Source: an uncultured Verrucomicrobiae bacterium (GTDB lineage: Bacteria > Verrucomicrobiota > Verrucomicrobiia > Chthoniobacterales > JAATET01). From it: a stretch of DNA of 64,000 nucleotides. The position numbers and the translations under genes are program-made. The stretch spans positions 151,724 to 215,723 of the forward strand of contig CAWDOJ010000003.1 of the NCBI GenBank assembly GCA_963803825.1, read 5' to 3'. Numbering within the stretch: position 1 is the stretch's first letter; the number at the start of each line of letters is the position of its first letter. The notes below the pieces were generated by a model. The model worked only from the letters and a program-made list of their open reading frames with translations. It made no database searches and was not told where the DNA came from. Positions 15,788-30,480 of the stretch are shown here, one piece after another.

Positions 15788-15802
15788 ATGCTAGGTGCGG
15801 AC

Positions 15803-16897
15803 ATGAAACCGTTGATTCCGAGCCGGACCAGACGGGGCACTTGGAGAGGACGGGGGAACGTTCTGTCCGGAGACGCTGATGATGGTGCTGCAGAGTTGGA
15901 CGGGGCCGTACACCGAAGCGCGGAAAGACGAGGCGTTTCGGCGGAGTTGGCCGCTGCTCCAGGCTTCCCTGGCCGTCGAAGCCCGTTGGCCAGTTTCGCG
16001 GGTGTTCTCGCGTCGTCCAGCGGCTGGGCGACGATCAGCGAGAGGATCGCCGCACAGGGGGGCGCAGATCAAGAACGCCGTGGGCAACGATCCTGGCCGG
16101 CGGATGGGGAAGAAGCGCGTGATCGGCGGCGGAGACGGGGGCGGGGGCACATGGTCGCGACACGGTGACGGTGGCGGGCGCGCTTTGGGCGCGAGTGCAT
16201 GATCTACATGGGGCTGGTCGACATGGAGCGGCAGGCTCTCAACGTGGCGCGGCATGCGGCTCCGGGGAGCGAGTTGTCGCGGTGACGGCGGGGCAGGCGA
16301 CGCTGAAGGAGGCGGTGAACGAGGCGATGTGCGACGGGCGACTCAACGTGCGGTTGATGCATCATCGGAACCGCTACGGAGCGCATCCTGGAATCCGAAA
16401 GACGGCGCGGGACTTCATGGGTGATCGGGACCAAAGTGTCGGCAGGTGTTGCAATGAAGAAGTGGCTGCTGGATCTCCTGGTTGGCTCGCGCTCGGGGTG
16501 GTGGAAGAACGCGTATCGGGGCTGTCCGCACCCCTTCCTCAACGACGAGGCGGTGAGGATGGTCGGGGTCGAAGCTGCGGTCGTTGGATCGCGAGGGTGA
16601 GCATGTGGCGCTGGTTCAGGGTGGTCGCCTCGGGGCGCCGCAGGGGGCGAGATGGTCGCCGGCCGACGACGACGGTCAGATCGAGCTGGACGCATTCCGC
16701 GGTCGGCGGGATCTGGATCACGCCGCCGGTCGGCTGGTATCGCCAACCTGCGGGACGTGGGGTCGGGCGCGACGTACTACGCAACGGACGACGAAGCGCT
16801 GGGGGCATCTCTCCGGATGCTGGCGGAGGCGGAGGGAACGATCCGGCACTCGAAGTTGGCCCACGCCGTGGCCTACGCCACGAAGGTGGTGCTGTAG
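15803..16897 (+). pseudogene. trpB: Tryptophan synthase beta chain, many frame breaks
   Basis: ATG at 15803. Collinear fragments: PDQTGH, KDEAFRRSW, GAQIKNAVG, RRMGKKRVI, ATLKEAVNEAM and YYATDDEALGA..RMLAEAEGTI...HAVAYATKVV, with a stop at 16895-16897. Confidence 0.8.
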
Positions 16898-18005
16898 ATG
16901 GCGAAGGACGAGATCGTCGTGATCAATCTTCGGGTCGGGGAGACAAGGACGTCGACCAGGCAATGCGGATGTCGTTGTAGTCGGTCCCTTCGGCAAGGCT
17001 TCGGAGGACTCGCTCGGCGCCATCCGCTGGTGAAGTGGTCGATATCTCGAGGTTGTTGCACTGATTCCGTCGTACTGGGGTCCCAGAGTTTCAGCGCGGC
17101 TTCGTCCGCTGTCCCGACGCCGCGGCCTGCTGACGGCTGCAACGGGCCCGGTGAGGATCGGGGCGGGTGTAGAGCGAACCTCGTCGACCAGGTTCTGGTC
17201 AAAAAAGGCTCCGAGGGTCTGGCCGCTGCTCGACGACAATTGAAGCTCACGCTCCGCGCCAGCGTGTCGAGAAGATCGGAGAGCGGGGACGATCGTTGGG
17301 GTCGAGGCGGCGGCGATCGGCGAAGATTTTTCGAAGTCGGGGACGTTCTCATTTTACGAGATGATGCGGCGCGGTTGGGGTTGCGCCGGGGATGCTGCGG
17401 ACGGTGAAGGCTGGGGTCGTCGGTGCGGATGGTTCCGGGCTCGACGAGAATGGCGTCGACTTCTCGGAGCGGCAGGCGTATCGCGTCGGCGCGGGACGCC
17501 TTCGCAGGTGAGCCAGCGCGAACGGGGTGGGAGGAGATCTGATCGTCGAGGGACAGGCCGGACTCCTCGCGATGACGTAGGGCTCGCCGGTTGCGATCGA
17601 ATTCGATCCAGGTGCGGGTCGAAGTCGGCGGTCTCCGCGTGAAGGGACGCCGGGCGTGACGGCGAGACCCGCTCGGGAGAGGTAGGCGGCGGGCGCGTCC
17701 GGCGTGGGCGGGATGCGGTCCGAGGCGAAGAACGCGGGCGAATCGGCGCGCCATGATCGCGTTGGTGCAAGCGGAGCTTCGGCCATGGTCGAGCAGGGTC
17801 CAGCGTGACGTAGAGCGTGGCATCGGTGGTGCGGACGCGGGTCCCAGTCGGGCAAGCGTCGACCTCGGCGTGCGGGCGGAGCCAGCAGCGGCGTGGTGGA
17901 AACTGATGGCGAGGACGCGGCCGCCACGGACGATAATGGTGCCATGGGGCTGGGTCGGGCCGGGCGTGACCGAGGCCGTAGGCGGTCGGCAAGTGCCGCG
18001 CGCAT
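16873..18005 (-). pseudogene. ribD: Bifunctional riboflavin biosynthesis deaminase/reductase, many frame breaks
   Basis: Fragments: MRAALAD, GTIIVRGGRVL..FHH, HAEVDA, ATLYVTLDP / DHGRSSACTNAI (zinc-deaminase region), VDAILVEPGTIRTDDPSLT and TLGAFFDQNLVDEV..APILTG. The 3' end is approximate. Confidence 0.7.
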
Positions 18006-18651
18006 GAAGCGGATGTCGGCGGGCGGATTTCACGGGAAGGAGCGGTAGGTAGACGTGGCGGGGCGCTCCAGGTCTCAGCGATCACCGAAACGTCGGCGCT
18101 CCTCAACCGAGACGGATCCGGGGCCGGTGCTGGTGGTGATCGCGTCGGTGGTGGTCGACGGCGGCGGCGGCGGCGACGGCGGCGGCAGTTCGGTGTCGGT
18201 CTGGGCCGGTCTACGAGGTGAAGATGAGTGGATGGAGTCCGTGTTGACGTGAGGATCGAGACCGTCTTGTTGTTCGTAGTGGATTGAAGCCCGCCGATGG
18301 ATTGTTTTGCTGGTGACGATGATGAGAGCTTGTCGAGCGTAGCGAGGGCGGGCTCGATGGTGTGGTCAAGTTCCTGGACTCGGCGAGGCACGCGTTCACC
18401 CTCGTCGTGGGTGAGTGGTCGGCGATGAAACCGCGTCGACGATGAGGAGAGCCGTGGGGGTTGGTATCCAGGAAGTCGGACGGCGCGGTCGTCATCTCGG
18501 CGAGACTGGGCGGCCAAGGCGGATCGGGTCGTTGCTGGGAGCTGCCAGACCGCCGTGACCGAACATCCCGAAGACGCGGGGGTATTCGCCACGCTGGGGT
18601 GCGCGTCAGGTCGGCTTCTGAGCGGACGATGTCGGAACCTGCTTGCGGAGT

Positions 18652-19233
18652 TCAGCATGAGGTCTCGGCCGATCGTGCGGAGCTGTCTCGCTCTCGGCAG
18701 AAGTGGCTCTCCACCACCGAGAACGAGCGAAAGGTCGACGTCGTCGACGAACTCGCCGGGCCAGTTCCAGGTGGTCGAGAGGGTCGTCGGTCTGGGCGTA
18801 GAAGGCTGCGGTCGCGGCGTCCGCTAGAGCGTGTCGGCGACATGCCTGTGGCCGCGGCCGGCGCGTCGGGCGAGTTGAACAGGGCTGGGAGAGGATCGCC
18901 GGCGGCGTCGATGGAGAGATGGCGGATGTTGATGTGTTGTCCGGTGGCGAGAGCGATGCGGCGGACGAGGCGTCGGGGACGGCGAGCCCGTTCGCGTAGG
19001 TCGTGAGCACTGCGAGGTGCGGGCGAGAGATTCAGCCGAAGCCGGGGGTGGTCCTGGCACTCTCCGGGTACAGTCGGGGGTGCGGGAGTAGCTAGGCGTC
19101 GAGGCTCGTCGCCGACGAAGAGAATGATGGCGAGGGGGCGCTGGACGACCGACTGGTGGGCTAGAGAGTGCTGAGACCTGATGAAAACGAGGACGCAGGC
19201 GCAGAGTGAGGAAGTGGTTGCGACGTTCGACAT
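18652..19233 (-). CDS. Hypothetical protein (probably continues downstream with frame breaks)
   Basis: ATG start with G/C-rich third positions over the first ~130 codons. No family recognised. Confidence 0.3.
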   Translation of the reverse strand: MSNVATTSSLCACVLVFIRSQHSLAHQSVVQRPLAIILFVGDEPRRLATPAPPTVPGECQDHPRLRLNLSPAPRSAHDLRERARRPRRLVRRIALATGQHINIRHLSIDAAGDPLPALFNSPDAPAAATGMSPTRSSGRRDRSLLRPDRRPSRPPGTGPASSSTTSTFRSFSVVESHFCRERDSSARSAETSC

Positions 19234-19770
19234 GAGGGGGGTGGCTATCTATGCTGTACTGTGAGGGAAGGAAAAGTGGAAGCTCTCGGGGAAATGATTC
19301 TGCGGCTGTGGCGACGAAGACTATACGAAGAGCCAGGTCGCCTGTGGCGGAATGGTAACAGAGCGCCCTTGGACGTTATTCATGGGTCGAGTTGATGTGG
19401 AGCGATCGGCGGTCTGGTCGGAATTTCTGGGTGAATCGGTGGGACTGTGAGACGCATGAAGAATGACGGGACTCTGTGAGTATCTCAAGGCATTGGACCT
19501 CGGAGGTGGTCTGGTGGGCGCAAGGGCGGGGCGACGAGCGAACGGGCGACTAGTCGGGCGGGTGAACGTGCGACGCTCGGGCGGACGGGAATCAAGTCGT
19601 GACTCGCGCTGGGAACGGTTGAATGGTTGGAACGGGGCGTCGAATCAGACGAGGCAAGCTGGGATCGGGGTGTCGTGGATCTGCTGGAGGAGGCATTCGA
19701 GCGGGGCGCGAATTCTGGGACGTGGTGGACCAGATGGGGGAGCTGATCCCAACTGGCGGAGGGGGTCGAA

Positions 19771-20310
19771 GTGGTGCCGTTGGACAAGGCGGGGGCGACC
19801 CCACTGAAGTCAAACTCGGAGGATGCGGGCGGGGATGTGGTCAACATTGATCGTTTCCGGAAGAAGTTGGCACTGATCGGCATCGATGTGCCGTTGCTGG
19901 CACTGGAAGACGTGAACTGGGTCGCTGAGCGTGCGGGCGCGATGGAGGTGATGGCCGACGCGAAAGGGTCGGGATCATCGGTGACTGGCGCCTGGGCGAT
20001 CTCCTTCGAGGCGCTCGAACGGCGGCTGCGGACTCGATCGGGTCGAAGTGGATCTGCGAGGATCAACCGAAGCTGGCGGCGTCACGCGCCGGTCACTGGG
20101 GTGCTGCTCGATTCCTTCCAGGGCAAGACGAATGCCGACGGGGAAGGTGCTATCTGGGATGAAATCTTCGGCGCCGGGGACGGCTCGCGAGGAAGATGGA
20201 TGACTTGTCTGCGATACGCGACGAAGCAGGACTGCGTGCCGATGTTTCATCGGCTGCGAGAGCGGCGGCAGCTCCGCGAGGTGATCGACGGGATCGAGTG
20301 GCTGAGGTAA
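19771..20310 (+). CDS. Hypothetical protein
   Basis: This frame has clearly G/C-biased third positions (checked codon by codon over 20101-20310) and ends in TAA. The sequence VVNIDRFRKKLALIGIDVPLLALEDVNWVAERAG... is non-repetitive. The 5' part is probably broken. Confidence 0.45.
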   Translation: MVPLDKAGATPLKSNSEDAGGDVVNIDRFRKKLALIGIDVPLLALEDVNWVAERAGAMEVMADAKGSGSSVTGAWAISFEALERRLRTRSGRSGSARINRSWRRHAPVTGVLLDSFQGKTNADGEGAIWDEIFGAGDGSRGRWMTCLRYATKQDCVPMFHRLRERRQLREVIDGIEWLR

Positions 20311-22703
20311 ACGGTCTTGGAGAGGACGGCGACCGGGTTGGGCGGTAGCGGGCGCCGGCAGCATCGGGGTGCTGGTAGGCCTGGTGGGCTGCGGCTTGAA
20401 GGGCCTCGGCGGCGGGCTGAGTCCAGGGGGCAGCGAGCGGGGTCGTCCGGATCGGGGCGCGCTGGATGTGCCGAAGTAAGGAGTGCGACTCGAGGGCGCG
20501 CGTTCGACGTCTCGCGGATCATCGCGTCGGCGGGGATGGAGCGGACGCCGCTGGCGCGGGTCTCGGCCAGTACGTCCCGGCTGGTGCCTTCGCCAAGGCG
20601 GGGCAGGCCGTTCGAGGTAACCCGCGGCCTCGACGTGGCCAAGGGCGCGGGCCTGGTGATCGCCGAGGCGGCGGCATTCGCCGGCGGCCAAGGTCGGCCA
20701 ATCGGTGGCCGCCTCGGAGATTCGCGAGGCGGGCAACGATCTCTTCGATGGGGTAGGTGTGTCTTCCAAGTGCGGCGGCGATGACGAGGCCTTCGCCGCT
20801 GGAAACGGGCGGCGATGCGGCCGTCGGCGGTCGGGACGCCAAGGGCGTCGATGAGGCCGAGCTTGCGCCAAGCGTGGGCGGGCGACGCTGGGGGGATTGA
20901 ATGCGGGGACTTCGGCGGTGGCCAGGTGGGTGTCCGGGTTGAGTTCGACGCGGCGGCGGGGCGGGGCGAGGAGTGCGCGGTCGTGCGGGTCCATGGTCGC
21001 TGCCCACGGGCTGGTCGCCGAGGCTCAGCTGAAGGGCGAGGATCTCGCCGCGTTGGGCGAGGCCGAGGACGGGGAGGTCGGTGAGGAGGGGCGCGACGGT
21101 GGTGAGAAATTCGGATTTGGTAAAGGTCTCGGCTTTGGTGAGGTGGAGCTTTTTGCGGACCCAGGGGAGGGGGCGGAGGCGGTTGTCTTCGGTGGGGTGG
21201 GCGGCACTCAATTCTTGCCGTAAACAAAGCCGGTGGGGGTGGAGATCTTACAAATTTGGCCCGGGCCGTGCGATTCGGCGACGGCTGGGACGCGGAGGGC
21301 GGGTTGCCATTTTTCCTTGTGAAAGGCGAGGCAGTCGGCGAGTGGGCGTGATCCGGTGCGGGCGTCTTTGGCGGGCTGCCAGGTGCCGGTGCTGTCGAGG
21401 TATTCTTCGCGGGTGGGGTTGAGGAAAGAGGGGGGGGCGTTTTGAGGAGGAGAGGGGGAGAGGGGTTCCAGTCCGAGAGTGGGAGCCTGGGGGCTGAAGA
21501 GATTGTTGGCAGGCTCGGCGGGCGGCTTCGAGGGGGTTGCGCCCTTGTTCGGCGGCGGTTTCCATGACGCGGAGGAGGCTGGGCCAATCGATCTCGTTGA
21601 CGCGGCGAAGGGGGCGCTGACTGGCATCGTAGAGGCGGGGGCCGTCGCGGGCGACGATGAGGGTGCCTTCGGTGTCGAGGCCACGGCGACCGGCGCGGCC
21701 ATACATTTGCAGGAGTTCGTCGGAGCGGAGTTCGCGCTGGATCGGACCGTCCTGGTAGCTGGTGCCGGCGATGGCGACGGAGCGGACGGAGAAATTGATG
21801 CCAGCGGCGAGGCCGGTGGTGGCGACGATGAAGTGGAGGTGGCCGTTCTTGGCGAGGGGTTCGATCCAGTGGGCGCGGGCGGCGTAGGGGAGGCCGCTGT
21901 GGTGGAAGGCGGTGCGGCGGGCGAGGAGGCGGGAGAGGTCCTTGCCGAGGAGGGTCTGAGCTTGGGCGGGATGGGGATGGCGTCCTGCAGGGGGAGGGCT
22001 TCGCTGAGGTGGCGGGCGATCTTTTCCGCGTCGGCGCGGCGGGGGGCGAAGATGAGCAGCGGGGTGAGGTGGGCGAGGTAGGCGGCGGCGGCGAGGCGGG
22101 GCCAGTAGCCTCGGACGGAGTCGGGGACGCGGGGGAGATTTTCTTGAGGGATCTCGTTGAGGGGGACGGGGCGGTCGGCGACGCGGATGATCTCAGTCGT
22201 GCGACCGAGGCGTTGGAACCAATCGGCGACGGCTGCGGGGTTGCGGACGCTGCCGCTGAGGAGGAGGAGTTGCGTGCGGTCGGGGGGCGCGAGGGCGAGG
22301 GCGAGTTCGTAGTTGAGGCCGCGGCGGGGGTCGGCGAGCATCTGGTATTCGTCGATGACGAGGGTGCCTGGGGCGTCGCCGGAAAGGATGCGCTCGCGTT
22401 GGGTTTCGAGGGTGGCGACGAGGATGGGGGCACGGGTGTTCTCGGCAAGATCGCCGGTGGCGATGCCGACGTCCCAGCCGCGGCGTTGCCACTCGGTCCA
22501 TTTGTCGTTGGCGAGGGCCGGGTCGGGACGGTGTAGACGGCTTGGCCGCGACGGGCGGCGGCTCCGGAGTCGACGTGGAGTTCGAAGACGCGCGTCTTAC
22601 CGGCACCGGTGGGGGCGTCGACGAGGACGTCGTGCCCGGCCATGAGGGCGCGGACGGCTTGCTGCTGCCAGAGGTCCGGGACGTCGAGGGCGATCTGGAG
22701 CAC
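20311..22703 (-). pseudogene. Superfamily-2 (Ski2/Lhr-like DExH-type) helicase, at least 3 frame breaks
   Basis: GTG start at 22703. Helicase motifs are collinear but spread across frames: motif I VDAPTGAGKT, motif II LVIDEYQ, FHHSGL, ATTGLAAGINFSVRSV and motif VI QMYGRAGRRGLD. The 3' end is uncertain. Confidence 0.75.
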
Positions 22704-22713
22704 GCTCGACGGT

Positions 22714-22746
22714 AATGAGAAATGGGGAATGCGAAATGAGAAATGG
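22714..22746. repeat. GAAATG micro-array (AATGAGAAATGG x2, 9-nt spacer)
   Basis: aatgagaaatgg ggaatgcga aatgagaaatgg lies directly upstream of the helicase start. Its unit resembles the GAAATGGGG unit of the composite repeats. Confidence 0.6.
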
Positions 22747-23115: not shown

Positions 23116-23229
23116 AAAAATGGGGTCAAAACTGGGGTTATAAATGGGGTCATAAATGGGGTCAGGTGTCAAAAATCAAACCGCTTCGGTGGGTACTCAA
23201 GTTTTGATACCTGACCCCATCCCCGATCC
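23116..23229. repeat. Composite palindromic repeat, copy A
   Basis: Four left units (AAAATGGGGTCA, AAACTGGGGTTA, TAAATGGGGTCA x2) precede the core GGTGTCAAAAATCAAACCGCTTCGGTGGGTACTCAAGTTTTGATACC. One inverted unit TGACCCCAT follows. Confidence 0.85.
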
Positions 23230-23310
23230 ACCCACTTTCGACCATTCAGGTCCATCCTTCAGGGCGATCGGATGCGGCTGCTTCCGTGGCGAGTTACGAA
23301 CGAATGTCGG

Positions 23311-24384
23311 ATGGAACGATCATCGAGAGCGACCGGGGTGCAGATCGCGTTGGCGGTCATTGCGGTGATGCTTGTGCTGTGGTCGGCGAGTAAAATTGTG
23401 ACCATCATCTTGATCACCGTGTTGGCGGTGGTGCTCGCGTGTGGCCTGCATCCGGTGATGTCCGCCATCCAACGAAAAGGAGAAGCGCTGCTGGGTTGGC
23501 GGTGTCCGCGTTGGGCCGTGGCACTTTCCCTCGTGCTATCGATTACCCTGGCGATCGTCGGTCTCGTCTTGTTTCTCGGGGCCAGGTTGTGGACTGAAGG
23601 CGCGGAAGCGGCGGAGTCGCTCCCGCAGTATGCGGACACCCTCGACGCTCGTTTGGAGCAACTGCACCGCACGTTTCCGCAGATCCCGGCAAATCCGGAC
23701 ATCGCGTCGATGGCTCAGGATCAACTCGGGAACGTCGGGAGCTACCTGTGGGAGAGGTCGAAAGCGTTGCTGGGAGTCCTTGGAGTCGTGGGGGCAGGAG
23801 TGACCGTATTGGTCCTCACTTTTTACCTTCTCATCAGCGGCGAGAAGCTATTCGGCACCGCATTGTTACTGGTCGTTCCACGGCACCGGCAGCGAGTCGC
23901 GAAGGCTTCGGCCGAGGCCTCGGAGGTGATGGGGTATTGGCTACGAGGGCAAGCGATCCTCGTAACGGCGATGACGGTGACCATCGCCCTTGCGATGATG
24001 GCGCTGGGTCTCCCCCATCCGCTGCTGCTGGGTTTGATTGGCGGCGTGGGTGAGTTAATCCCGATGGTGGGTCCATTTCTGGCGGCCTGGATCGCGGTGC
24101 CGCTTGCGTTCCTGACCATGCCGTGGTGGGTGGGCGTCTGCACTGCGGTGTTTTTTGTGGTGCTCGCGCTAGTCGAAGGGAATTTCGTAGTTCCGAAGGT
24201 GATGCAGAAGAACGTGTCGCTGCCGCCTGCCGTGACGATCGTCGTCGTGTTGGCCGGAGCCAGTTTGTTCGGAGTGATTGGCGCGCTGCTCGCGGTGCCG
24301 ATCACCGCCGCGACGCGGGTCTATTTGAAGTGGTTTGTCATCCCGGCGATCGAAGGAGAGCGGCCACCGGCCGGGCAAGCGTGA
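23311..24384 (+). CDS. AI-2E family (PerM/UPF0118) transporter
   Basis: ORF 23272..24384 is polytopic, with LIGGVGELIPMVGPFLAAWIAVPLAF typical of the family. The start is 23272 or the ATG at 23311. Confidence 0.85.
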   Translation: MERSSRATGVQIALAVIAVMLVLWSASKIVTIILITVLAVVLACGLHPVMSAIQRKGEALLGWRCPRWAVALSLVLSITLAIVGLVLFLGARLWTEGAEAAESLPQYADTLDARLEQLHRTFPQIPANPDIASMAQDQLGNVGSYLWERSKALLGVLGVVGAGVTVLVLTFYLLISGEKLFGTALLLVVPRHRQRVAKASAEASEVMGYWLRGQAILVTAMTVTIALAMMALGLPHPLLLGLIGGVGELIPMVGPFLAAWIAVPLAFLTMPWWVGVCTAVFFVVLALVEGNFVVPKVMQKNVSLPPAVTIVVVLAGASLFGVIGALLAVPITAATRVYLKWFVIPAIEGERPPAGQA

Positions 24385-24405
24385 ACGCAACGGAACTCGC
24401 AGCAC

Positions 24406-24483
24406 GGAAATGGGGTCAGAAATGGGGTCAGGTGTCAAAAAACCAGACCGCGTCGGCAAATATTCAAGTTTTGATATCTGACC
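24406..24483. repeat. Composite palindromic repeat, copy B (right array degenerate)
   Basis: GGAAATGGGGTCA GAAATGGGGTCA precedes the core GGTGTCAAAAAACCAGACCGCGTCGGCAAATATTCAAGTTTTGATATC, followed by TGACC. Confidence 0.8.
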
Positions 24484-24746
24484 AGATTACCGGGTCTTCG
24501 GAAGATGGTCGGGTTCGCGTCCTGCAGATGGTCTGGAAGCGTGACGATGTTTCCAGCGTCGGCGCCAACGACGAAGATGACGTCCAAATGGCGCGGCGGG
24601 CCGCCTTTTTCTCCGTTGGAGCCGACGGTCAGCCGGATCGGAAGGCAAGGCCGGCGATCTCGCCGGGAACGTTGGGGACTCAGGCGCTGATACCTGAAGA
24701 CCTTCAATTCGAGATCGGGGTGGCGAAGGGAGTCTCGTGAGGGCGT

Positions 24747-26138
24747 CTAGTAGTCGCCGGTCTTCCGCGCGTCCTCTGGCTCGCCGCTGAGGACTTTTCG
24801 GAGGAGCGCGAGGCGCGCCCGGTTCAATAGGCCGCTGGCCGTCGGGTCGCCCGCCCGGTTGGTTAGCTGCTGGGGATCGGTCGTGAGGTCGAAGAGTTCT
24901 TCCGACTCATCGAGGTGGTGAACGTAGAGGAAGTCGGTCGTCCGGATTGCCTTGTAGCCGTCACCGGGACCGTTTTTCAATTGGATCAGCGCTCCGGAAT
25001 CGAGGGTGCGAAAGCGGGGACTGCCCTCGATGACCGGGCGGAGCGTCGAACCTTGGAGCCAAGAGGGGCGGGGCACCTCGGCGAAATCGAGAAGGGTGGG
25101 GACAATGTCGACGGCTTCTGCGATCTCGCCGGAAAGGGTCGCGGGCCTGCCGCCAGCGGCACCGGCGAAGATGAGCGGGACGCGCGCGGACGCGTCTTCC
25201 GCTCCGCCCTTCTGAATGCGACCATGATCGCCGAGGTATTCCCCGTGGTCGGAGGTGAAGACGACGAGGGTGTCGGCGGCTACACCCGTGGAATCGAGGG
25301 TGTCGAGGATGCGTCCGATCTGGTCATCGACGTGGGCGACGAGCGCGTAGTAGTGCGCCTTGACCTTGCGCCATTGCGCGTCGGAGACGTCTCGGAAGTT
25401 CTGACCCTCGCTTCGGTTGGGTAGGGTCAAGGCGTCTTCATCGATCAGCTCGACGAAGCGCCGGGGTGGATTGATCGGGGTATGGGGAGCGTAAAACCCG
25501 GCGATGCAAAAGAAGGGTTCGCGGAAGCGAGATTCGGTCAGAAATTGGCAGGTGCGGTCGGCGACAAAAGCGCTGTGGGTGAGTTGCTCGTCGGCTTCGA
25601 ACACGTAGGGGCCGTGGACCTCCCGGGGGCGGCCGGTGATCGCAGGTCCGCGCCAGGCGGGAGGGCTAGCGATCCGGCAACCATCGACGGCGGAGGGATC
25701 GCGCTGGCGGACCCACTCGATGTAGGCGTCCTCGTAACAACCCGGTTCGTCGGAGTTGACGTTCACGTCGAAACCGTAGGCGGGATAGGGGTCGCGGTGG
25801 TCGCGGCCTACGCTGGCGTGGTTACGGAAGTGCAATTTGCCAAAGTTCGCAGTTAGGTAGCCGACTCGTCCGAGGAGGTGTTGGACGCATTCGACCGAGT
25901 CGGGCAGCTCGGTGCCGTTGCTCTGAATCCCAAGCGTCGACGGGTAACGTCCGCTCAACATGCTCATTCGGCTCGGCATGCAGACGGGGCAATTCACGAA
26001 CGCCCGGGTGAAGCTGGTGCCGCTCGCGACGAGGCGGTCGAGGTTGGGAGTGGGACAATTCGGGTTGCCGAGGGCGCCGATCGTGTCCCAGCGTTGCTGG
26101 TCGGTGTAGAGGAGGAGCGTGTTTTTGCGTTTGCGCAC
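24747..26138 (-). CDS. Formylglycine-dependent sulfatase (arylsulfatase A family)
   Basis: Intact 463-aa ORF. It has NILLLYTDQQR-type N-terminus, the CMPSRMSMLSG (C-x-P-x-R) motif, GKLHF and FTSDHGE. Confidence 0.9.
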   Translation of the reverse strand: MRKRKNTLLLYTDQQRWDTIGALGNPNCPTPNLDRLVASGTSFTRAFVNCPVCMPSRMSMLSGRYPSTLGIQSNGTELPDSVECVQHLLGRVGYLTANFGKLHFRNHASVGRDHRDPYPAYGFDVNVNSDEPGCYEDAYIEWVRQRDPSAVDGCRIASPPAWRGPAITGRPREVHGPYVFEADEQLTHSAFVADRTCQFLTESRFREPFFCIAGFYAPHTPINPPRRFVELIDEDALTLPNRSEGQNFRDVSDAQWRKVKAHYYALVAHVDDQIGRILDTLDSTGVAADTLVVFTSDHGEYLGDHGRIQKGGAEDASARVPLIFAGAAGGRPATLSGEIAEAVDIVPTLLDFAEVPRPSWLQGSTLRPVIEGSPRFRTLDSGALIQLKNGPGDGYKAIRTTDFLYVHHLDESEELFDLTTDPQQLTNRAGDPTASGLLNRARLALLRKVLSGEPEDARKTGDY

Positions 26139-26259
26139 GCAGCATTCTACCGATCTCGGGTGCGGTTGAGAATCGTCGGTTTGCGCACGGGAATCGAAAA
26201 GATGCCCGGTGTCAACGCGGCTGGTGGTAGCGGGCCGGGAGCGTGGGGGGTGCCGTTGC

Positions 26260-26441
26260 GGAAATGGGGTCAGGAAGTGGGGTCAGAAGTTGGGTCAGGT
26301 GTCAAAAACCAAACCGCTTCGGCAGATATTCAAGTTTTGACGCCTGACCCCATTCCCGCTTCGGCAGATATTCAAGTTTTGACGCCTGACCCCATTCCTG
26401 ACCCTGACCCCATTCCTGACCCCATTCCTGACCCCATTCCC
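26260..26441. repeat. Composite palindromic repeat, copy C (archetype, with internal 42-bp duplication)
   Basis: Three left units (GGAAATGGGGTCA, GGAAGTGGGGTCA, GAAGTTGGGTCA) precede the core GGTGTCAAAAACCAAACCGCTTCGGCAGATATTCAAGTTTTGACGCC. About five right units TGACCCCATTCC follow. Confidence 0.9.
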
Positions 26442-26545
26442 TGCTTCCCACCGGCAGCGCCGTCCTCGACTTCAGCGCCCAAGCCCTAGCGCTCGTCGAC
26501 GGCGCAGCGCTCGCCTTCGGTCCCGACGCGACGGCGCCACATGGC

Positions 26546-28509
26546 GTGGCCGTGATGGCAGTGCCTCTCGCCGACCTGAACGCCCCCGATCCATCGGAGG
26601 CGCTGAATCCTAATGGGCTCGCGTTCACCCCCGACGAAGCTTTCGTCGACAAGGATGGGCTCGTGTATCTCGTCAGCGGGGTTAGCCAAAATATCTTCCG
26701 CTGGGACCCGGCGGCGCGGGGTTTCCTGAGTTCGATCCCGCTCGTGGCGGTTCCTGATTTCGTCGCCTACTCGGCGGCGAATCACTCGATCTACACCGGG
26801 ACGGCAAATGGTTCGATCCGGATGATCGATCTCAGAGTGCCGACGGTGGCAGCCGAAGCCCCGTTTGCCACGGTAGCGTCCCGGTTGCGCGGACTGGCGA
26901 CGGCGGGGACCTTCGTTTTCGCCGACGACAGCACCGGACCGTGGGGCTGCCCACCATATCTTTGACAACACTGGCATCCTGCGCTCTTCCAAAGACTGGA
27001 ATTACCACTCCGCCGAGTTCGCCTGGAGCGACGTGAATCAGAAGATGTATTTTTTCCGCGATTCGTCGCCCACCGACTTGCTTCTGGGAGGAGATCAACG
27101 CGAACGGCACCGCCTACCCAAACCTGCTCCGCGGCACGATCGGCGTCAGCAAAGATTCCCCGCTCCACACTAGCGAGGGGTTCAAACTTCCGATCCGGCT
27201 CTCGCCCGACGGATCGAAGGTGCTGCTCGGATCCGGCATTTTCCACGACGCCATTTCCCTTGCCCGCCTGCCGGGAGCGCTCAGCTATGCCTTCACGGAT
27301 GCCGCCTGGACGGGTTCGGATGTGCTGACCCTCCGCGAGACCTCCGGGTCGACGCAGCTCCAAAAATGGATTGCCCCCAGCTACTCGCAGGGAGCCATCG
27401 CTACGAACGACGGTCTGCCCTACCGAATTCTGCCAGTGGGTGAAGAGAAATTCGTAGGGATTTTTCTGCCCGCGATCGGTATTCCGGAATTTCAGATCTA
27501 CGATTCCAATCTGAGAATCGTGGCTCCGTCCGCTCTCGAAGCACCAGCTCTCGTGATCTCGTCGATCCTGGACACTCGCGAAGTTCAGCTCACTTGGACC
27601 GGCGTGACCGGCGCGGCTTATTACGACATCGAGCGCTCAAATGCCGCCACGCCAGAGGCTTGGGAGAACTTCAGCACCGCCAAGACAACTTCCTTCAAAT
27701 CCGCACTCGTCAGAGGTCAGGAGTTTTTCTTCCGCGTCCGCGCCCGCAACGGCACGCTGATCTCGGCACCCTCCGCTGCGATTCGCGTTGCGGCCCGAGT
27801 TCCGATGGCACCCGCAGACTCCGTCGCCGTCGTCGTCCCGGACAGCAATTCGTCCTACTACGGCAGCGTGCAGGTCAGTTGGACGGCGTCCGAAGGTGCC
27901 GCCACCTACCGGGTCGAGCAACGCCGACTCCCTTCGAACCAATGGTCGACGGGCGAAGTCGTCACTGCCCCGACCAGCAACTACTCCGCGACTTACCTTT
28001 CCTCGGGTTTCTACGAGTATCGCGTGATCGCGATCAACGCTTTCGGCGAATCGACCGCCAGCGCCGTGGCTTCCGTGACTGTCGGCAATCCGTCGCCAGT
28101 CCCGACACCGACGCCGGCAGCCACGCCGAGTCCCACACCTTCGCCAAGTCCGAGTCCCACGCCGAACGTCCCGGCACCTCCGATTGTGCAACCACTTCCA
28201 GCGCCAACGCCGATCGCGGGTCCCCGCAAAGATCGAGTCCGGCCTGAAATGGATGTCTCCGGGAATCGACGGCGCATCACGGGCAAGCGAAAGTTCATCA
28301 TTGGTGGCACGGCCACGGACAATCGCAAGATCGCCCACATCGAGATCACCCGGGACGGTCGCACCCGCAAGATTCGCACGCAGGGACGCCGATTCTGGTT
28401 TGCCCGCGTGAAACTGCAGGCGGGTCGGAATGTCTTCACAATGTCAGCCTTCGACCGTGCCGGTAACGAATCGAAGAGCCGCCGAGTCGTGGTGATCCGC
28501 CGCGACTGA
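26546..28509 (+). CDS. Large secreted protein: repeat/propeller-like N-region, two FN3 domains, Pro/Thr/Ser linker and an Ig-like C-domain; about 2 frame breaks in the N-region
   Basis: ORF 27220..28509 is intact. It has FN3-like blocks LTWTGVTGAAYYDIER...FFFRVRARN and VSWTASEGAATYRVEQR...YEYRVIAINAFG, then the linker PSPVPTPTPAATPSPTPSPSPSPTP. ORF 26546..26965 and a bridging frame (FDNTGILRSSKDWNYHSAEFAWSDVNQKMYFF...) read as the same protein. No clear start or signal peptide. Confidence 0.7.
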
Positions 28510-28566
28510 ACCGTCCTGGACGACGACGCGGCTTCGCAGATGGTGGCGGTCGCCGAGCAGGTGCCC

Positions 28567-28757
28567 GGAAATGGGGTCAGAAATGGGGTCACGAAATGGG
28601 AAATGGGGCCAGAAGTCAAAATTCAAACCACTTCAGAAATGGGGTCAGGTGTCAGAAATGGAAATGGGGTCAGGAAATGGGGTCAGGTGTCAAAATTCAA
28701 ACCACTTCGGCAGATATTCGAGTTTTGAGGCCTGATCCCATTCCTGACCCCATTCCC
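28567..28757. repeat. Composite palindromic repeat, copy D (half-element plus full element)
   Basis: A left-unit array and half core (AGAAGTCAAAATTCAAACCACTTC) lack a right arm. A second left array then leads into a full core GGTGTCAAAATTCAAACCACTTCGGCAGATATTCGAGTTTTGAGGCC, followed by TGATCCCATTCC and TGACCCCATTCC. Confidence 0.85.
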
Positions 28758-28787
28758 GACGAGGGTGAATGGCAGAGCCGATACTCC

Positions 28788-29153
28788 CTATAATTCTTCG
28801 GTGTATTTTCGGACGGAAAGCGGGCGCAGGATCTCGACGCGTTGGGCTTGGACGGAGTCCTCGCTCCACATCACGAGTCGCACGGAAGTGCCAACCTTGA
28901 GGTCGGTGATCGTGACCGCTTCGCCGTCGAACTTGGTGACGACGGTATCGTCCGGGATCTCAAATTTCCGTATTTCCGCTCCAGGTTCGCTTTGCGTCAC
29001 GATATATTCGTCCTTGTTAGGATCGGCCGCAGTGATGACCCCTTCGAAGAAAGCCTGGTTTTCTGTAATGGCCGGAGGATTTTGCGCCTGAAGCGATCCG
29101 GGGACGACGGGCAGGGCGGCGGTGGCTAGAACGAATAAGAATTTGGCATGCAT
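28788..29153 (-). CDS. Small secreted protein (121 aa)
   Basis: ATG at 29153 with signal peptide MHAKFLFVLATAALPVVPGSLQA, followed by a beta-rich body. The longer tracked ORF (to 29702) overlaps the CAP gene on the opposite strand and is not credible. Confidence 0.7.
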   Translation of the reverse strand: MHAKFLFVLATAALPVVPGSLQAQNPPAITENQAFFEGVITAADPNKDEYIVTQSEPGAEIRKFEIPDDTVVTKFDGEAVTITDLKVGTSVRLVMWSEDSVQAQRVEILRPLSVRKYTEEL

Positions 29154-29240
29154 CCGTTTGGTTCGCACAATAGAGGATTTTCGGTTCCCTCTTCCCGTTC
29201 GCGATCCATCCGTTCGGGGCCACTCCGCCGATCCTAGAGA

Positions 29241-29840
29241 ATGCGTGTTGTGATTTCGCTTTCCATCTTCCTTGCGTTGCTCGACGCAACCGCGTCCCCG
29301 CTTCAGCGTGACAACTTCGAACCTCGGCCGCTCGCTGGCGCAATTTTCGAAGAGACCAATCGCGTCCGGGCGAGACATGATCTTGCCCCACTCGATTGGA
29401 ACGTGGATGCCGCTAAGGCCGCTCAGATGCAAGCCGAGGCCCTCGCCGCGGCCGAAGTTCTCACGCACGGATCGGCTGAGCCGGATGAGATCACCAACCC
29501 ATTTTCTCGACTTACCGAGCAGGGACTCGATCCGACATTCGTTGCCGAGAACGTCGCATACCAATTTTTGTTGCGTTACGAATCCAACGAGCCGTTCTAC
29601 ACGCGGAGCGAGGACGGTCGAACGATTCACACCGACCAGCCCGGCGGCGAACCTATCGAACCCAATTCGCGTGAAAGTTTTGCGAAGGCCATCGTCGAGC
29701 AATGGATGAATTCACCGGGACATCGAGCAAACCTTCTATCGCCGGAGCCATCCGAAATTGGGATCGGCTGCGCGCTGTCCCGCCACGCCAACAGCCTGGA
29801 TACCATCTACGCGGTGCAGAAGTTCCTTCACCTGGAGTAG
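29241..29840 (+). CDS. CAP/SCP (YkwD-like) domain secreted protein
   Basis: Intact ORF with a signal-like N-terminus. It has NRVRARHDLAPLDW...AAQMQAEAL and IVEQWMNSPGHRANLLSPEPSEIGIGCA (CAP signature). Confidence 0.85.
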   Translation: MRVVISLSIFLALLDATASPLQRDNFEPRPLAGAIFEETNRVRARHDLAPLDWNVDAAKAAQMQAEALAAAEVLTHGSAEPDEITNPFSRLTEQGLDPTFVAENVAYQFLLRYESNEPFYTRSEDGRTIHTDQPGGEPIEPNSRESFAKAIVEQWMNSPGHRANLLSPEPSEIGIGCALSRHANSLDTIYAVQKFLHLE

Positions 29841-29894
29841 TTGGCCGTTTGGCCTGCCCCCGGACCGCAATCTGGAAGGCGGCGAGTCGAAATC

Positions 29895-30245
29895 GGAAAT
29901 GGGGTCAGGGAGCGGGGTCAGGGAGCGGGGTCAGTCCATACCAATGACACATGACAAAGGTATGGGAGCGGGGTCAGTCCATACCAATGACACATGACAA
30001 AGGTATGGACCGACCCCGTTCCGACCCCGTTCCGACGTTCCCCGTTCCCCGTTCCATGACGACCCCGTTCCCTGGACCGACCCCGTTCCTGGACCGACCC
30101 CGTTCCGTGACAAAGGTATGGACCGACCCCGTTCCCGACCCCGTTCCGTTCCGACCCCGTTCCTGACAAAGGTATGGACCGACCCCGTTCCTTCCCCCGT
30201 TCCGTTCCGACCCCGTTCCGACCCCATTCCCTGACCCCATTCCCC
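29895..30245. repeat. Composite repeat, copy E (variant core, expanded right array)
   Basis: Left units are GGAAATGGGGTCA and GGGAGCGGGGTCA. The core hairpin is GTCCATACC-AATGACACATGACAAA-GGTATGGAC. About 14 right units GACCCCGTTCC are interspersed with three copies of TGACAAAGGTATGGACCGACCCCGTTCC, and the array ends with two TGACCCCATTCC units. Confidence 0.85.
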
Positions 30246-30357
30246 CTTTCTCGCTACTTTCGAGCGCGAGATCCTGCAGGAGGGCGACGGCGGTTTGATG
30301 AAAGGCAAAGCCGACCTTGGACGCGAGGCTGGCGGTGACTTCGAGGGGCATCTTTAA

Positions 30358-30386
30358 GGAAATTTGAAATTCGAAATTTGAAATGG
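30358..30386. repeat. GAAAT micro-array
   Basis: ggaaatttgaaattcgaaatttgaaatgg contains four GAAAT motifs, in the gap between copy E and the dxr stop. Confidence 0.55.
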
Positions 30387-30480
30387 TTTTCGGCTTTGCC
30401 ATTGGGGGTTGATCGGCGGGAGGTGCGATGGCTCGGTGGGGGGGCGCTGAAGGTGGGAAGTCAGAGGTGTCTCGCTTTGC

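What the first reader, a model, noticed from the sequence alone, without database searches (positions are those of the whole stretch)
23116..30245. Undescribed-looking composite palindromic repeat family occupying five of the intergenic gaps in a 7-kb stretch
Five loci are involved: 23116-23229, 24406-24483, 26260-26441, 28567-28757 and 29895-30245. They share one architecture. Two to five tandem ~12-nt units G(G)AAATGGGGTCA come first, then a core with inverted arms GGTGTCAAAA / TTTTGA(C/T)(G/A)CC around a ~25-nt loop containing CGCTTCGG. An array of the reverse-complement unit TGACCCCATTCC closes the element. Each element is therefore a 80-350-bp imperfect palindrome built from short iterated modules. 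The copies sit in a divergent promoter gap (A), downstream of a gene on one side (B), upstream of genes on both sides (C) and between convergent stops (D, E), so position is not tied to one function. I saw no full copy in the other 57 kb. This resembles REP/BIME or MITE logic, but with iteron-like unit arrays. I do not recognise it as a named family.
Basis: seen in the sequence. Interest (0 to 1): 0.75.

Follow-up and report, generated by a model that had tools for sequence, protein, structure and literature searches.

The report
Gene-less tyrosine-transposon end hairpins
The five intergenic palindromes are paired ends of a RAYT-like (TIRYT) tyrosine-transposase element that carry no gene, which is a known kind of bacterial miniature repeat; what is unusual is that each is flanked by ladders of partial end copies that look like scars of the enzyme nicking and re-copying its own terminus.

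Summary
The 11-mer AAATGGGGTCA (≤1 mismatch) occurs 21 times, all inside 23118-30242, against 0.6 expected. All five loci fold as strong ssDNA hairpins. Two other contigs reproduce A-D and the first 55 nt of E.

It is not an unknown class. In related Verrucomicrobiae loci the same arm sequences are the terminal inverted repeats of roughly 305-347-aa Y1 (HUH) transposase genes. The arm is a GGGGTCAG foot, a short spacer, then TTGACA. The arm foot fits the published GGGGWSAS motif of TIRYT/"TIRtron" elements (Di Nocera 2013; Quentin 2018 subclass 2.1 = Bertels RAYT group 1).

A-D are head-to-head arm dimers of one subfamily. E has a different core: the left and right ends of a second subfamily fused with no gene between them.

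The "12-nt iterons" are the outermost 12-13 nt of the repeat. The arrays are tiled by modules that all start at the terminus and stop at variable depth (5-44 nt here, up to about 790 nt elsewhere). This fits the published nick-extend-rejoin amplification model for REP/BIME.

There is no Y1 gene in the window, and copy number in the source genome could not be tested. Verdict: a new member of a known kind, with an informative laddered architecture.

The parts
23116..23229 (+). Element A: 4 left terminal modules (23118-23164), head-to-head arm dimer (arms 23165-23174 / 23202-23211 around the CCGCTTCGG loop), 1 right terminal unit TGACCCCATCCC. It lies in a divergent gap upstream of the AI-2E transporter gene.
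   Evidence: I15: 19-nt arms, 95% complementary; dG -22, z -6.0; profile hits at 23197-23220 and 23155-23172
24406..24483 (+). Element B: 2 left units, a core with loop CCGCGTCGG, and a degenerate right unit TGACCAGATTACC. It starts 22 nt after the AI-2E transporter stop codon and is the most decayed copy.
   Evidence: dG -10.9, z -2.5; weak hit, E 1.0
26260..26441 (+). Element C: 3 left units, the core, then a right side made of a 42-nt terminus-anchored partial copy (half loop + arm + unit) plus 3 perfect units TGACCCCATTCC and one odd TGACCC piece. It lies in the divergent gap between the sulfatase and fn3/Ig-like genes.
   Evidence: period 42 x2.0 at 100%; period 12 x3.2 at 100%; E 0.01, twice
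28567..28757 (+). Element D: a left ladder of modules all starting GAAATG, of length 13, 14, 8, about 36 (a diverged partial core, 28600-28635), 22, 6 and 14 nt, then a full dimer (28674-28743) and 2 right units. It lies between convergent stop codons.
   Evidence: (dG -29.7, z -7.0). The right half is confirmed in the independent contig L046. L014 ends at 28671, inside D.
29895..30245 (+). Element E belongs to the second subfamily. The left end GGGGTCAGTCCATACCAATGACA is fused to the right end TGACAAAGGTATGGACCGACCCC with no gene between them. The left side has a 43-nt duplication. The right side is a ladder of 18 modules all starting GAACGG on the minus strand, with lengths from 5 to 45 nt. 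The whole is bracketed by one or two canonical units GGAAATGGGGTCA / TGACCCCATTCC. It lies between convergent gene ends.
   Evidence: I1-I6; E 9e-4 to 6e-3, five hits; dG -38.9, z -7.1. The ends match those flanking Y1 genes in L005, L016 and L015. The first 55 nt are confirmed in L046.
22714..22746 (+). Possible remnant or footprint (uncertain): a run of short GAAATG-type modules (AATGAG AAATGGGG AATGCG AAATGAG AAATGG) with no core, 11 nt upstream of the start of the 20247-22703 ORF.
   Evidence: (period 7 x4.7). The link to the family rests on resemblance only.
30359..30384 (+). Possible remnant (uncertain): GAAATTT GAAATTC GAAATTT GAAATGG, a set of 7-nt modules beginning like the terminus, 114 nt to the right of E.
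   Evidence: (period 7 x3.7). The link to the family rests on resemblance only.

Best explanation
The five elements are non-autonomous, gene-less derivatives of TIRYT-type Y1 (HUH) tyrosine-transposase elements ('TIRtrons') of Verrucomicrobia. Each consists of two terminal inverted-repeat arms placed head to head, so that one DNA strand folds into a long hairpin, as a REPIN does.

Each arm reads, from the outside in: a terminal 12-13 nt (GGAAATGGGGTCA, containing the GGGGTCAG foot = GGGGWSAS), a short subfamily-specific spacer, then a (T/A)TTGAC(A) or TCAAAA box. A-D belong to one subfamily. E belongs to a second.

Inferred mechanism. A cognate TIRYT encoded elsewhere in the genome binds the folded arm on single-stranded DNA and nicks at the outer boundary of the terminus, becoming linked to the 5' end. 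This mobilises the dimers into intergenic DNA. Insertion is preferentially next to existing termini, which would explain the nesting and the local cluster.

The flanking 'unit arrays' are by-products. After a nick at the terminus, the flank's 3'-OH is extended by a host polymerase, re-copying the arm inward for a variable distance. The new 3' end is then joined to the enzyme-linked old terminus. Each such event adds one terminus-anchored, internally truncated copy. This is the nick-extend-rejoin amplification scheme proposed for E. coli TnpA(REP)/BIME.

What is shown: homology of the arms to Y1-gene termini, the element boundaries, and the anchored ladder pattern. What is inferred: catalysis, the cleavage position, target preference, and the existence of a cognate gene in this genome.
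For: 1. The same arms bound Y1 genes elsewhere.
- L005: left end GGGGTCAGTCCATACTATTGACA about 50 nt before the ATG, and right end GTGTCAAAAGTATGGACTGACCCCGTTCC after the stop.
- L016 and L015 show the same arrangement.
- L018 and L019 carry the A-D-type arm GGGGTCAGGCATCAAAACTTGACAG about 30 nt upstream of a Y1 start.
- L024, L036 and L040 are further examples.

2. One identical Y1 protein (P0263) sits in two different contexts, L027 and L028. This fixes the element boundaries at GGAAACTAGGGGTCGG...CCGACACCTAGTTTCC. The 'unit' is therefore the outermost part of the inverted repeat, not target DNA.

3. A profile was built only from 14 arms flanking Y1 genes in other loci. It hits the window exclusively inside the five elements: 18 of 18 hits with E<10, the best at 9e-4.

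4. The protein is RAYT-like.
- Pfam Y1_Tnp scores 38-48 bits against a cut-off of 23.
- The best NCBIfam match is the REP-associated tyrosine transposase model.
- The alignment conserves the HuH motif and DY[VI]HLNP.
- The AlphaFold model has pLDDT 90.7, and its best PDB match is 4ER8, E. coli RAYT bound to a REP hairpin, with TM 0.77. That is ahead of the IS200, IS608 and ISDra2 transposases.

5. The literature describes TIRYT genes flanked by TIRs sharing GGGGWSAS, with TIR families occurring as singles, dimers and clusters (PMC3733652; PMC6006769).

6. Gene-less dimers occur at unrelated loci: L005, L013, L020/L022 and L021.

7. The ladder.
- Modules all begin at the terminus motif and cover 0.96, 0.94 and 0.78 of three arrays at anchor offset 0.
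- The same pattern includes gene fragments in L005 (63, 226, 789 and 617 nt) and L015 (27, 30 and about 780 nt).
- It also appears in other assemblies, L019 and L021.
- A published model predicts exactly this product (PMC3333891, Fig. 7B).

8. All elements are intergenic, and all form strong ssDNA hairpins.
Against: - There is no Y1 gene in the 64-kb window (tblastn, best E 0.5). The rest of the source genome was not available, so a cognate enzyme in this organism is unproven.
- No empty-site or presence/absence comparison could be made. The closest ortholog of the flanking AI-2E transporter gene is only 55% identical.
- The exact-match scans of public collections found few copies: 3 real loci of 13 in genomes and 6 in metagenomes. 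Abundance is therefore unknown.
- The profile hits to A, B and D are individually weak (E 0.1-1.0).
- Pfam finds no Bac_DnaA_C or HTH domain in the C-terminal half, so assignment to Quentin's subclass 2.1 is incomplete.
- Short modules of 5-8 nt could also arise by small deletions inside a 12-mer array.
- One piece (TGACCC in C) is not terminus-anchored.
- No TIRYT has been shown to be active in any organism.
Confidence: 0.75

Rival explanations
1. The elements are host-serving structural or regulatory elements, not primarily mobile DNA. The hairpins would act as RNA stabilisers or terminators, or as protein-binding sites. The 12-mer arrays would be true iterons bound by a helix-turn-helix protein, possibly the C-terminal domain of the Y1 protein or a host factor.
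For: All copies are intergenic. Two lie between convergent genes and one lies 22 nt after a stop codon. The folds are strong. Classical REPs are reported to have such roles (abstracts listed). The Y1 family has a conserved helical C-terminal region with an HTH-like WIA..L.MGS motif.
Against: No terminator-like or promoter-like consensus overlaps any element. There is no Rfam family match, only generic hairpin noise. The elements occupy every kind of gap: divergent, tail-to-head and convergent. Unit number, spacing and completeness vary widely and include 5-8-nt fragments, which is not how iterons behave. The unit sequence differs between related elements while the position at the terminus is conserved. 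This reading is not exclusive of the main explanation, since exaptation is possible.
Confidence: 0.12
2. The elements are purely local repeat instability. One ancestral palindrome would have been copied within this 7-kb stretch by recombination, and its flanks expanded by replication slippage, with no transposase involved.
For: All five copies lie within 7.1 kb although about 28 other intergenic gaps in the window are empty. Several arrays are perfect tandem repeats. Hairpins promote slippage.
Against: Homologous dimers and arms occur in other genomes and metagenomes at unrelated loci, and they form the ends of Y1 genes. E belongs to a different subfamily from A-D, so the cluster is not one duplicated sequence. 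Duplications of very different length (5 to about 790 nt) all restart at the same terminal nucleotide(s), which slippage does not predict.
Confidence: 0.08
3. The elements are miniature derivatives (MITE/PATE) of a classical IS200/IS605 insertion sequence rather than of a RAYT/TIRYT-type element.
For: The associated protein matches Pfam Y1_Tnp, 'Transposase IS200 like'. IS200, IS608 and ISDra2 transposases are significant structural matches. The arms contain small internal hairpins.
Against: The proteins are about 305-347 aa, not about 130-150. They carry the class-2 Y---NP motif (DYVHLNP), not the class-1 motif (PMC6006769). The best fold match is the E. coli RAYT 4ER8. The NCBIfam IS200 model scores far below its cut-off, 17.9 bits against 55. 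The two ends are true inverted repeats, whereas IS200/IS605 ends are not.
Confidence: 0.04
4. The elements are an assembly or sequencing artefact of a long-read metagenome assembly.
For: The window contains a clearly low-quality stretch (13.4-21 kb) and frameshifts in the fn3 gene. Two contigs end inside the repeats.
Against: A-C and D up to 28671 are 100% identical in contig L014. D's right half and the start of E are 99.9% identical, with no gaps, in an independent Logan assembly of run ERR12040027. The same architecture is seen in other assemblies from other samples.
Confidence: 0.01

Closest known systems
TIR repeat families of TIRtrons / TIRYT genes (Di Nocera et al. 2013, BMC Genomics 14:522, PMC3733652); TnpA(Y1) subclass 2.1 of Quentin et al. 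2018 (PMC6006769) = RAYT group 1 of Bertels et al. 2017 (PMC5581495)
   Same: RAYT-like Y1 genes are bounded by terminal inverted repeats that carry GGGGWSAS (here GGGGTCAG) about 45-56 nt upstream of the start codon. Gene-less copies of the TIRs occur in the genome as singles, dimers and clusters. The proteins are long, with a C-terminal extension.
   Different: The host is Verrucomicrobia (Chthoniobacterales-like), and the specific arm sequences are not in the papers read. Two subfamilies are nested in one another. There are conspicuous ladders of terminus-anchored truncated copies. The C-terminal domain gives no Pfam DnaA_C or HTH match.
REPIN/RAYT systems (Bertels and Rainey 2011, PMC3116915)
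   Same: Two short palindromic ends in inverted orientation form a long hairpin. The element is non-autonomous and intergenic, and a Y1 transposase gene is itself flanked by the same ends.
   Different: There is no GTAG or CGTC tag. The associated protein belongs to a different RAYT group (group 1 / TIRYT rather than groups 2 or 3). In this lineage the Y1 gene family looks multi-copy and IS-like: thousands of homologs, many of them on 1-5-kb contigs.
BIME clusters and the TnpA(REP) nick-extend-rejoin amplification model (Ton-Hoang et al. 2012, PMC3333891, Fig. 7B)
   Same: End modules are reiterated in tandem next to a resident element. The model predicts addition of a copy that starts at the first cleavage site and ends where the new 3'-OH is joined, which is the pattern seen here.
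   Different: BIMEs add whole REP-plus-linker units. Here the added pieces are of any length from 5 nt to about 790 nt, sometimes including transposase-gene fragments. The enzyme class (TIRYT) is untested biochemically.
IS200/IS605 family and their palindrome-associated miniature elements
   Same: HUH Y1 chemistry on single-stranded DNA, hairpin recognition, and no detectable target-site duplication at the window copies.
   Different: IS200/IS605 ends are not inverted repeats. Their transposases are short class-1 enzymes, and both of their ends are processed on the same strand.

Membership tests
TIRtron / TIRYT-associated TIR repeats | The repeat carries the GGGGWSAS motif | tested here: met
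   GGGGTCAG is present in both arms of A, C and D, in the left arm of B and in the left end of E. The right end of E has GGGGTCGG, one position off. The motif is quoted from PMC3733652 and PMC6006769.
TIRtron / TIRYT-associated TIR repeats | The same sequence forms terminal inverted repeats flanking a RAYT-like Y1 gene | tested here: met
   Met in relatives: L005, L015, L016, L018, L019, L027/L028 and L036. A profile of those arms finds only the five window elements. It could not be tested in the source genome itself, and there is no Y1 gene in the window.
TIRtron / TIRYT-associated TIR repeats | The associated protein is a Y1 HUH enzyme of the RAYT clade (HuH motif, Y---NP motif), longer than classical RAYTs | tested here: met
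   Pfam Y1_Tnp is above cut-off. NH[FY]HL and DY[VI]HLNP are conserved in 37 sequences of about 305-347 aa. The best fold match is 4ER8, at TM 0.77.
TnpA(Y1) subclass 2.1 (Quentin 2018) | C-terminal Bac_DnaA_C / HTH_23 / HTH_28-like domain | tested here: inconclusive
   No Pfam match up to E=5. The model shows a confident all-helical C-terminal region with a conserved WIA..L.MGS motif. The C-terminal domain was not searched on its own.
TIR/REP-type repeat family (dispersed, multi-copy in one genome) | Many copies dispersed around the host chromosome | not testable with these tools
   Only 64 kb of the source genome is available, and the source is absent from the scanned genome collection. Within the window the copies are clustered, not dispersed.
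Classical REP / REPIN (GTAG- or CGTC-tagged) | A 20-40-nt imperfect palindrome tagged by GTAG or CGTC at one end | tested here: not met
   The foot is GGGGTCAG preceded by GGAAAT. There is no GTAG or CGTC tag. The definition comes from PMC3733652.
Classical REP / REPIN | Two inverted ends separated by a spacer, folding as one hairpin | tested here: met
IS200/IS605-derived miniature element | Cognate class-1 TnpA (about 130-150 aa) and non-inverted subterminal hairpins | tested here: not met
   The protein is about 305-347 aa with the class-2 Y---NP motif. The NCBIfam IS200 model scores 17.9 bits against a cut-off of 55. The ends are inverted repeats.
Known structured RNA family (Rfam) | Match at the gathering score | tested here: not met
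   There are 0 matches at gathering threshold in 64 kb. Only sub-threshold miRNA-hairpin noise falls on the elements.
Intrinsic terminator | A GC-rich stem followed by a T-run | tested here: not met
   None of the 4 terminator-like sites overlaps an element.

The most novel reading that the evidence does not exclude
The ladders of terminus-anchored, internally truncated arm copies are molecular scars of TIRYT catalysis in vivo. Each would record one nick at the outer boundary of the terminus (5' of GGAAAT...), polymerase extension from the flank, and resealing onto the enzyme-linked end. The copies range from 5-44 nt in the window to about 790 nt with gene fragments in relatives. If so, this family gives the first natural read-out of activity, cleavage position and strand symmetry for the biochemically uncharacterised TIRYT / RAYT-group-1 enzymes. 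Both ends would be processed alike on opposite strands, unlike IS200/IS605. It would also show that existing termini are the preferred insertion targets, which would explain the nesting of E inside canonical units and the 7-kb cluster.
Probability: 0.35. Interest if true: 0.6.

Novelty: new member of a known kind. Interest (0 to 1): 0.45.

Why it matters
TIRYT / RAYT-group-1 proteins are the largest and most widely distributed RAYT group. Only two papers in the searched library use the terms TIRYT or TIRtron, and both treat them by sequence comparison only.

This Verrucomicrobial family offers three things:
- clean element boundaries;
- two subfamilies with matched transposase genes;
- a natural series of junctions that point to where the enzyme cuts and how it amplifies its ends.

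That makes the published nick-extend-rejoin model directly testable with a defined substrate. Practically, these hairpin-and-array repeats break metagenome assemblies, since two contigs end inside them. They also generate spurious ORFs, so recognising them improves annotation of soil Verrucomicrobia MAGs.

Tried and rejected
- Rfam at gathering and permissive thresholds found no family, only generic miRNA-precursor hairpin noise.
- The terminator and promoter consensus scan found nothing at the elements.
- tblastn of the L005 Y1 protein against the window found no gene (best E 0.5).
- phmmer of the Y1 protein against PDB sequences found nothing. The relationship to 4ER8 appeared only by fold comparison.
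- The exact look-up of the AI-2E ORF as listed (370 aa) failed because the called start codon differs. The 357-aa form was found by homology search.
- An orthologous empty-site test was abandoned, because the nearest AI-2E ortholog is only 55% identical.
- L014 was hoped to be a second strain but is identical across A-D, so it gives reproducibility, not polymorphism.
- Most hits of the 18-mer genome scan (10 of 13 loci, from unrelated phyla) showed no unit array or second arm and are taken as chance matches.
- A first greedy parse of the arrays was noisy. It was replaced by seed-and-extend tiling with an anchor-offset control.
- Target-site duplication: the L027 flanks share TTACCGCTGG, but L028 and the window copies show no consistent duplication, so none is claimed.
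- CRISPR, iteron and simple-VNTR readings were considered and rejected on architecture.

Full report
OBSERVATION

The five loci are as described. The 11-mer AAATGGGGTCA, allowing one mismatch, occurs 21 times in the 64-kb window. Every occurrence lies between 23118 and 30242. The expected count is 0.59, and none of 100 shuffles reached 21. The variant GGAACGGGGTC gives 23 hits against 3.6 expected, and 21 of them are in C, D and E.

The core arms GGTGTCAAAA / TTTTGAyrCC are in A, B, C and D. Tandem Repeats Finder and the inverted-repeat search reproduce both the arrays and the palindromes. As single-stranded DNA the elements fold far better than shuffled controls:

| Element | dG (kcal/mol) | z-score |
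|---|---|---|
| A | -22.0 | -6.0 |
| B | -10.9 | -2.5 |
| C | -18.9 | -3.5 |
| D | -29.7 | -7.0 |
| E | -38.9 | -7.1 |

The sequences are not assembly noise. Contig L014, from ENA sample ERZ25039505, is identical across A-C and into D as far as 28671, where it ends. An independent Logan assembly of run ERR12040027 (L046) matches 28658-29949 at 99.9% identity with no gaps.

E does not carry the GGTGTCAAAA/CGCTTCGG core. Its core is GTCCATACCAATGACA-CA-TGACAAAGGTATGGAC, and most of its units are the variant GGAACGGGGTCG. Only its outermost units are canonical.

WHAT THE ARMS ARE

An exact-match scan of one genome per species found real relatives only in Verrucomicrobiae MAGs from sample MFD03250 (loci L003, L005, L013). 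The other hits look like chance.

L005 holds a 316-aa ORF that matches Pfam Y1_Tnp at 45 bits against a cut-off of 23. Its best NCBIfam match is the REP-associated tyrosine transposase model. About 50 nt upstream of this ORF's ATG lies GGGGTCAGTCCATACTATTGACA. Just after its stop codon lies GTGTCAAAAGTATGGACTGACCCCGTTCC.

Those are the two halves of the core of window element E. In the window they are joined directly, with no gene between them. L016 and L015, which hold Y1 proteins 97% and 68% identical to that of L005, show the same ends.

A metagenome scan with the right arm of A-D returned six loci.
- In L018 and L019 the A-D-type arm GGGGTCAGGCATCAAAACTTGACAG lies about 30 nt upstream of the start of a Y1 gene that is 43% identical to the L005 protein.
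- L020/L022 and L021 carry gene-less head-to-head dimers.
- The L021 dimer has flanking partial-unit arrays.

So A-D and E are the gene-less end pairs of two subfamilies of one transposase family.

ELEMENT BOUNDARIES

The identical protein P0263 is found in two different genomic contexts, L027 and L028. The shared DNA begins at GGAAACTAGGGGTCGGTAGTCAAATCTTGACAG and ends at CTGTCAAGATTTGACTACCGACACCTAGTTTCC.

The outermost 13 nt (GGAAACTAGGGGTC) are the counterpart of the window's 'unit' GGAAATGGGGTCA. The unit is therefore the terminus of a roughly 30-nt terminal inverted repeat. It is neither target DNA nor a separate iteron.

FORMAL HOMOLOGY TEST

I built a profile HMM from 14 arms that flank Y1 genes in other loci, using no window sequence, and searched the window with it. 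All 18 hits with E<10 fall inside the five elements and none falls elsewhere. E-values by element:

| Element | E-value |
|---|---|
| E | 9e-4 to 6e-3 |
| C | 0.01 |
| A | 0.11 |
| D | 0.29 |
| B | 1.0 |

The individual scores for A, B and D are weak because the arms are short. The exclusivity is what carries weight.

THE PROTEIN FAMILY

Homology searches return thousands of relatives:
- 4753 proteins for the L005 type and 7069 for the L018 type at E<1e-20;
- mostly from Chthoniobacterales/Verrucomicrobiota;
- often on 1-5-kb contigs;
- named by JGI 'REP element-mobilizing transposase RayT';
- including a Chthoniobacter flavus Ellin428 protein (P0223).

An alignment of 37 members conserves the HuH motif (NH[FY]HL), the class-2 tyrosine motif DY[VI]HLNP, a WSS motif and a C-terminal WIA..L.MGS motif.

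The AlphaFold model has pLDDT 90.7. Its best PDB match is 4ER8, the E. coli REP-associated tyrosine transposase bound to a REP hairpin (TM 0.77, rmsd 2.2 Å). That match ranks ahead of the IS200, IS608 and ISDra2 transposases. Pfam detects nothing in the C-terminal half.

COMPARISON WITH WHAT IS KNOWN

Di Nocera et al. 2013 (PMC3733652) described RAYT-like genes flanked not by GTAG REPs but by terminal inverted repeats that share the motif GGGGWSAS. They named the genes TIRYTs and the structures TIRtrons. They also reported that TIR sequences form moderately abundant families organised as singles, dimers and clusters.

Quentin et al. 2018 (PMC6006769) equate TIRYTs with TnpA(Y1) subclass 2.1, quote the consensus GGGG[AT][CG]A[CG], and map Bertels' RAYT group 1 onto this subclass. 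Bertels et al. 2017 describe group 1 as the largest, most widely distributed and most IS-like RAYT group.

The window's foot GGGGTCAG fits the motif. In the loci examined it lies about 45-56 nt upstream of the Y1 start codon. The finding therefore belongs to a catalogued class.

The papers I could read do not describe this particular Verrucomicrobial family or the laddered arrays. Only two papers in the library use the terms TIRYT or TIRtron at all.

THE ARRAYS

Seed-and-extend tiling shows that the arrays are almost entirely made of modules with two properties. They all start at the terminus motif: GAAATG on the left of A-D, GAATGG on their right read on the minus strand, and GGAGCG / GAACGG in E. 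They then run inward along the arm for variable lengths of 5, 6, 8, 11-14, 16, 22, 29, about 36, 42 and 44 nt.

Coverage by terminus-anchored modules is 0.96 (E right), 0.94 (C right) and 0.78 (D left). It falls steadily when the anchor is shifted inward.

The same pattern appears at larger scale in relatives.
- In L005 the full gene is followed by right-end-anchored copies of 63, 226, 789 and 617 nt that include the 3' part of the gene.
- In L015 left-end-anchored copies of 27, 30 and about 780 nt precede the full gene.
- L016, L019 and L021 show shorter versions.

Slippage can explain in-register 12-mer expansion, and small internal deletions could explain some 5-8-nt pieces. Neither explains why duplications of such different lengths all restart at the same nucleotide(s).

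Ton-Hoang et al. 2012 proposed for E. coli TnpA(REP) that a nick leaves a 3'-OH that host polymerase extends. The new 3'-OH is then joined to the enzyme-linked 5' end, adding one extra unit (PMC3333891, Fig. 7B). Applied here, a nick at the outer boundary of the terminus would give exactly a terminus-anchored partial copy whose length depends on how far extension went.

Because the ends are inverted repeats, the same reaction on the opposite strand accounts for the right-hand ladders. This step is inference; no biochemistry exists for TIRYTs.

Many inner junctions read TCA|G. That may mark a second preferred site, but I treat it only as a lead.

CLUSTERING AND NESTING

A rough ORF map gives about 28 intergenic gaps of at least 60 nt outside 22.6-30.5 kb, none of which holds an element. 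About 5 of 8 gaps inside that stretch hold one. My Fisher estimate from those counts is about 1.5e-4.

E is bracketed by canonical A-D-type units. In L005 an A-D-type dimer sits directly against the right-end unit of the other subfamily. Both observations suggest that existing termini are preferred insertion sites, which would also produce local clusters.

All four A-D copies have the same orientation on a strand with uniformly positive GC skew. This is compatible with strand-specific insertion into single-stranded DNA, but four copies are too few to argue from.

WHAT IS NOT SHOWN

- The window has no Y1 gene.
- The source genome was not in the scanned collection, so neither copy number nor a cognate enzyme in this organism could be checked.
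- No empty site was available.
- An RNA-level or protein-binding role is not excluded. However, there is no Rfam match and no terminator or promoter consensus at the elements.

VERDICT

The elements are a new sequence family of a known kind: TIR dimers of TIRYT/RAYT-group-1 elements, REPIN-like in architecture. The 'iteron' arrays are best read as ladders of terminus-anchored partial end copies.

Interest is moderate. The class is known, but it is barely studied, and these ladders give a concrete, testable handle on how the enzyme cuts and amplifies its ends.

Noticed in passing
window 13464-20963 (and the GC-skew anomaly across about 10-23 kb and 31-41 kb): This stretch is only 80-88% identical, with 23-66 gap columns per 500 nt, to contig L014. 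From 20964 onward the two are 99-100% identical. L014's intact genes (HhH-GPD, MFS, PALP, RibD, alkaline phosphatase, aldo-keto reductase) match the window in all three frames at 35-55% identity. GC skew here is 0.22-0.38, which is abnormally high. It looks like an unpolished, low-quality stretch of a long-read assembly (or of L014), so ORF calls there, including the 818-aa 'DEAD-like' ORF 20247-22703, are unreliable.
   Followed up: partly
window 26546-28509: The fn3/Ig-like gene is split by frameshifts near 26950-27083 in the window. In L014 it is called as one ORF of at least 705 aa. This is probably an indel error in the window.
   Followed up: partly
window 22714-22746 and 30359-30384: Two short period-7 arrays of GAAAT(G)-type modules with no core, just outside elements A and E. 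They could be footprints or remnants of the same family, or coincidental.
   Followed up: partly
L005 2282-5110: One full Y1 gene is followed by four right-end-anchored truncated copies: the last 4 codons, then aa 259-316, aa 70-316 and aa 126-316. Each ends with its own right end. An A-D-type dimer is inserted between two of them (4419-4490). L015 has the mirror image at the left end: three tandem left ends plus a copy truncated at aa 217.
   Followed up: yes
L005 3214, 3504, 4292, 4987: The conserved C-terminal motif K-M-G-S of the Y1 protein is encoded by AAAATGGGGTCG, which is nearly identical to the terminal unit AAATGGGGTCA. This could be coincidence or could bear on the origin of the terminus.
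   Followed up: no
L003 7600-7830: A half element (two units plus the left arm GGTGTCAAAACTCAAATCC) directly abuts the 3' end of a gene whose tail (ERTFAWLGRYRRLSKDYE) looks like an IS5-type DDE transposase. This suggests an IS inserted into a dimer. The transposase identity was recalled from memory and not tested.
   Followed up: no
window 28671 (end of L014); 28658 and 29949 (ends of L046): Both other contigs covering this region terminate inside elements D or E. These repeats therefore break assemblies, whether through their internal tandem structure or through other copies.
   Followed up: partly
window 29974-30402 (-) and 29931-30308 (-): ORFs of 125-142 aa read straight through element E, translating the unit array into a repetitive peptide. 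They are almost certainly spurious, or a real small gene (start near 30352) with its end obscured by the repeat.
   Followed up: no
L024 2493-2610 (Chthoniobacter flavus Ellin428): The cultured-strain family member P0223 has a left end (GGGGTCAGTCAACAAATCTTGACAG) but no visible right end. What looks like a tRNA gene lies on the opposite strand directly after its stop codon. It may be a decayed or domesticated copy.
   Followed up: no
L013 2070-2115: A solitary short version, GGGTCAGTCCATACTTTTGCCATGTCAACTGACCCC, of the E-type arm occurs without any gene. It shows that minimal forms of the second subfamily also occur.
   Followed up: no
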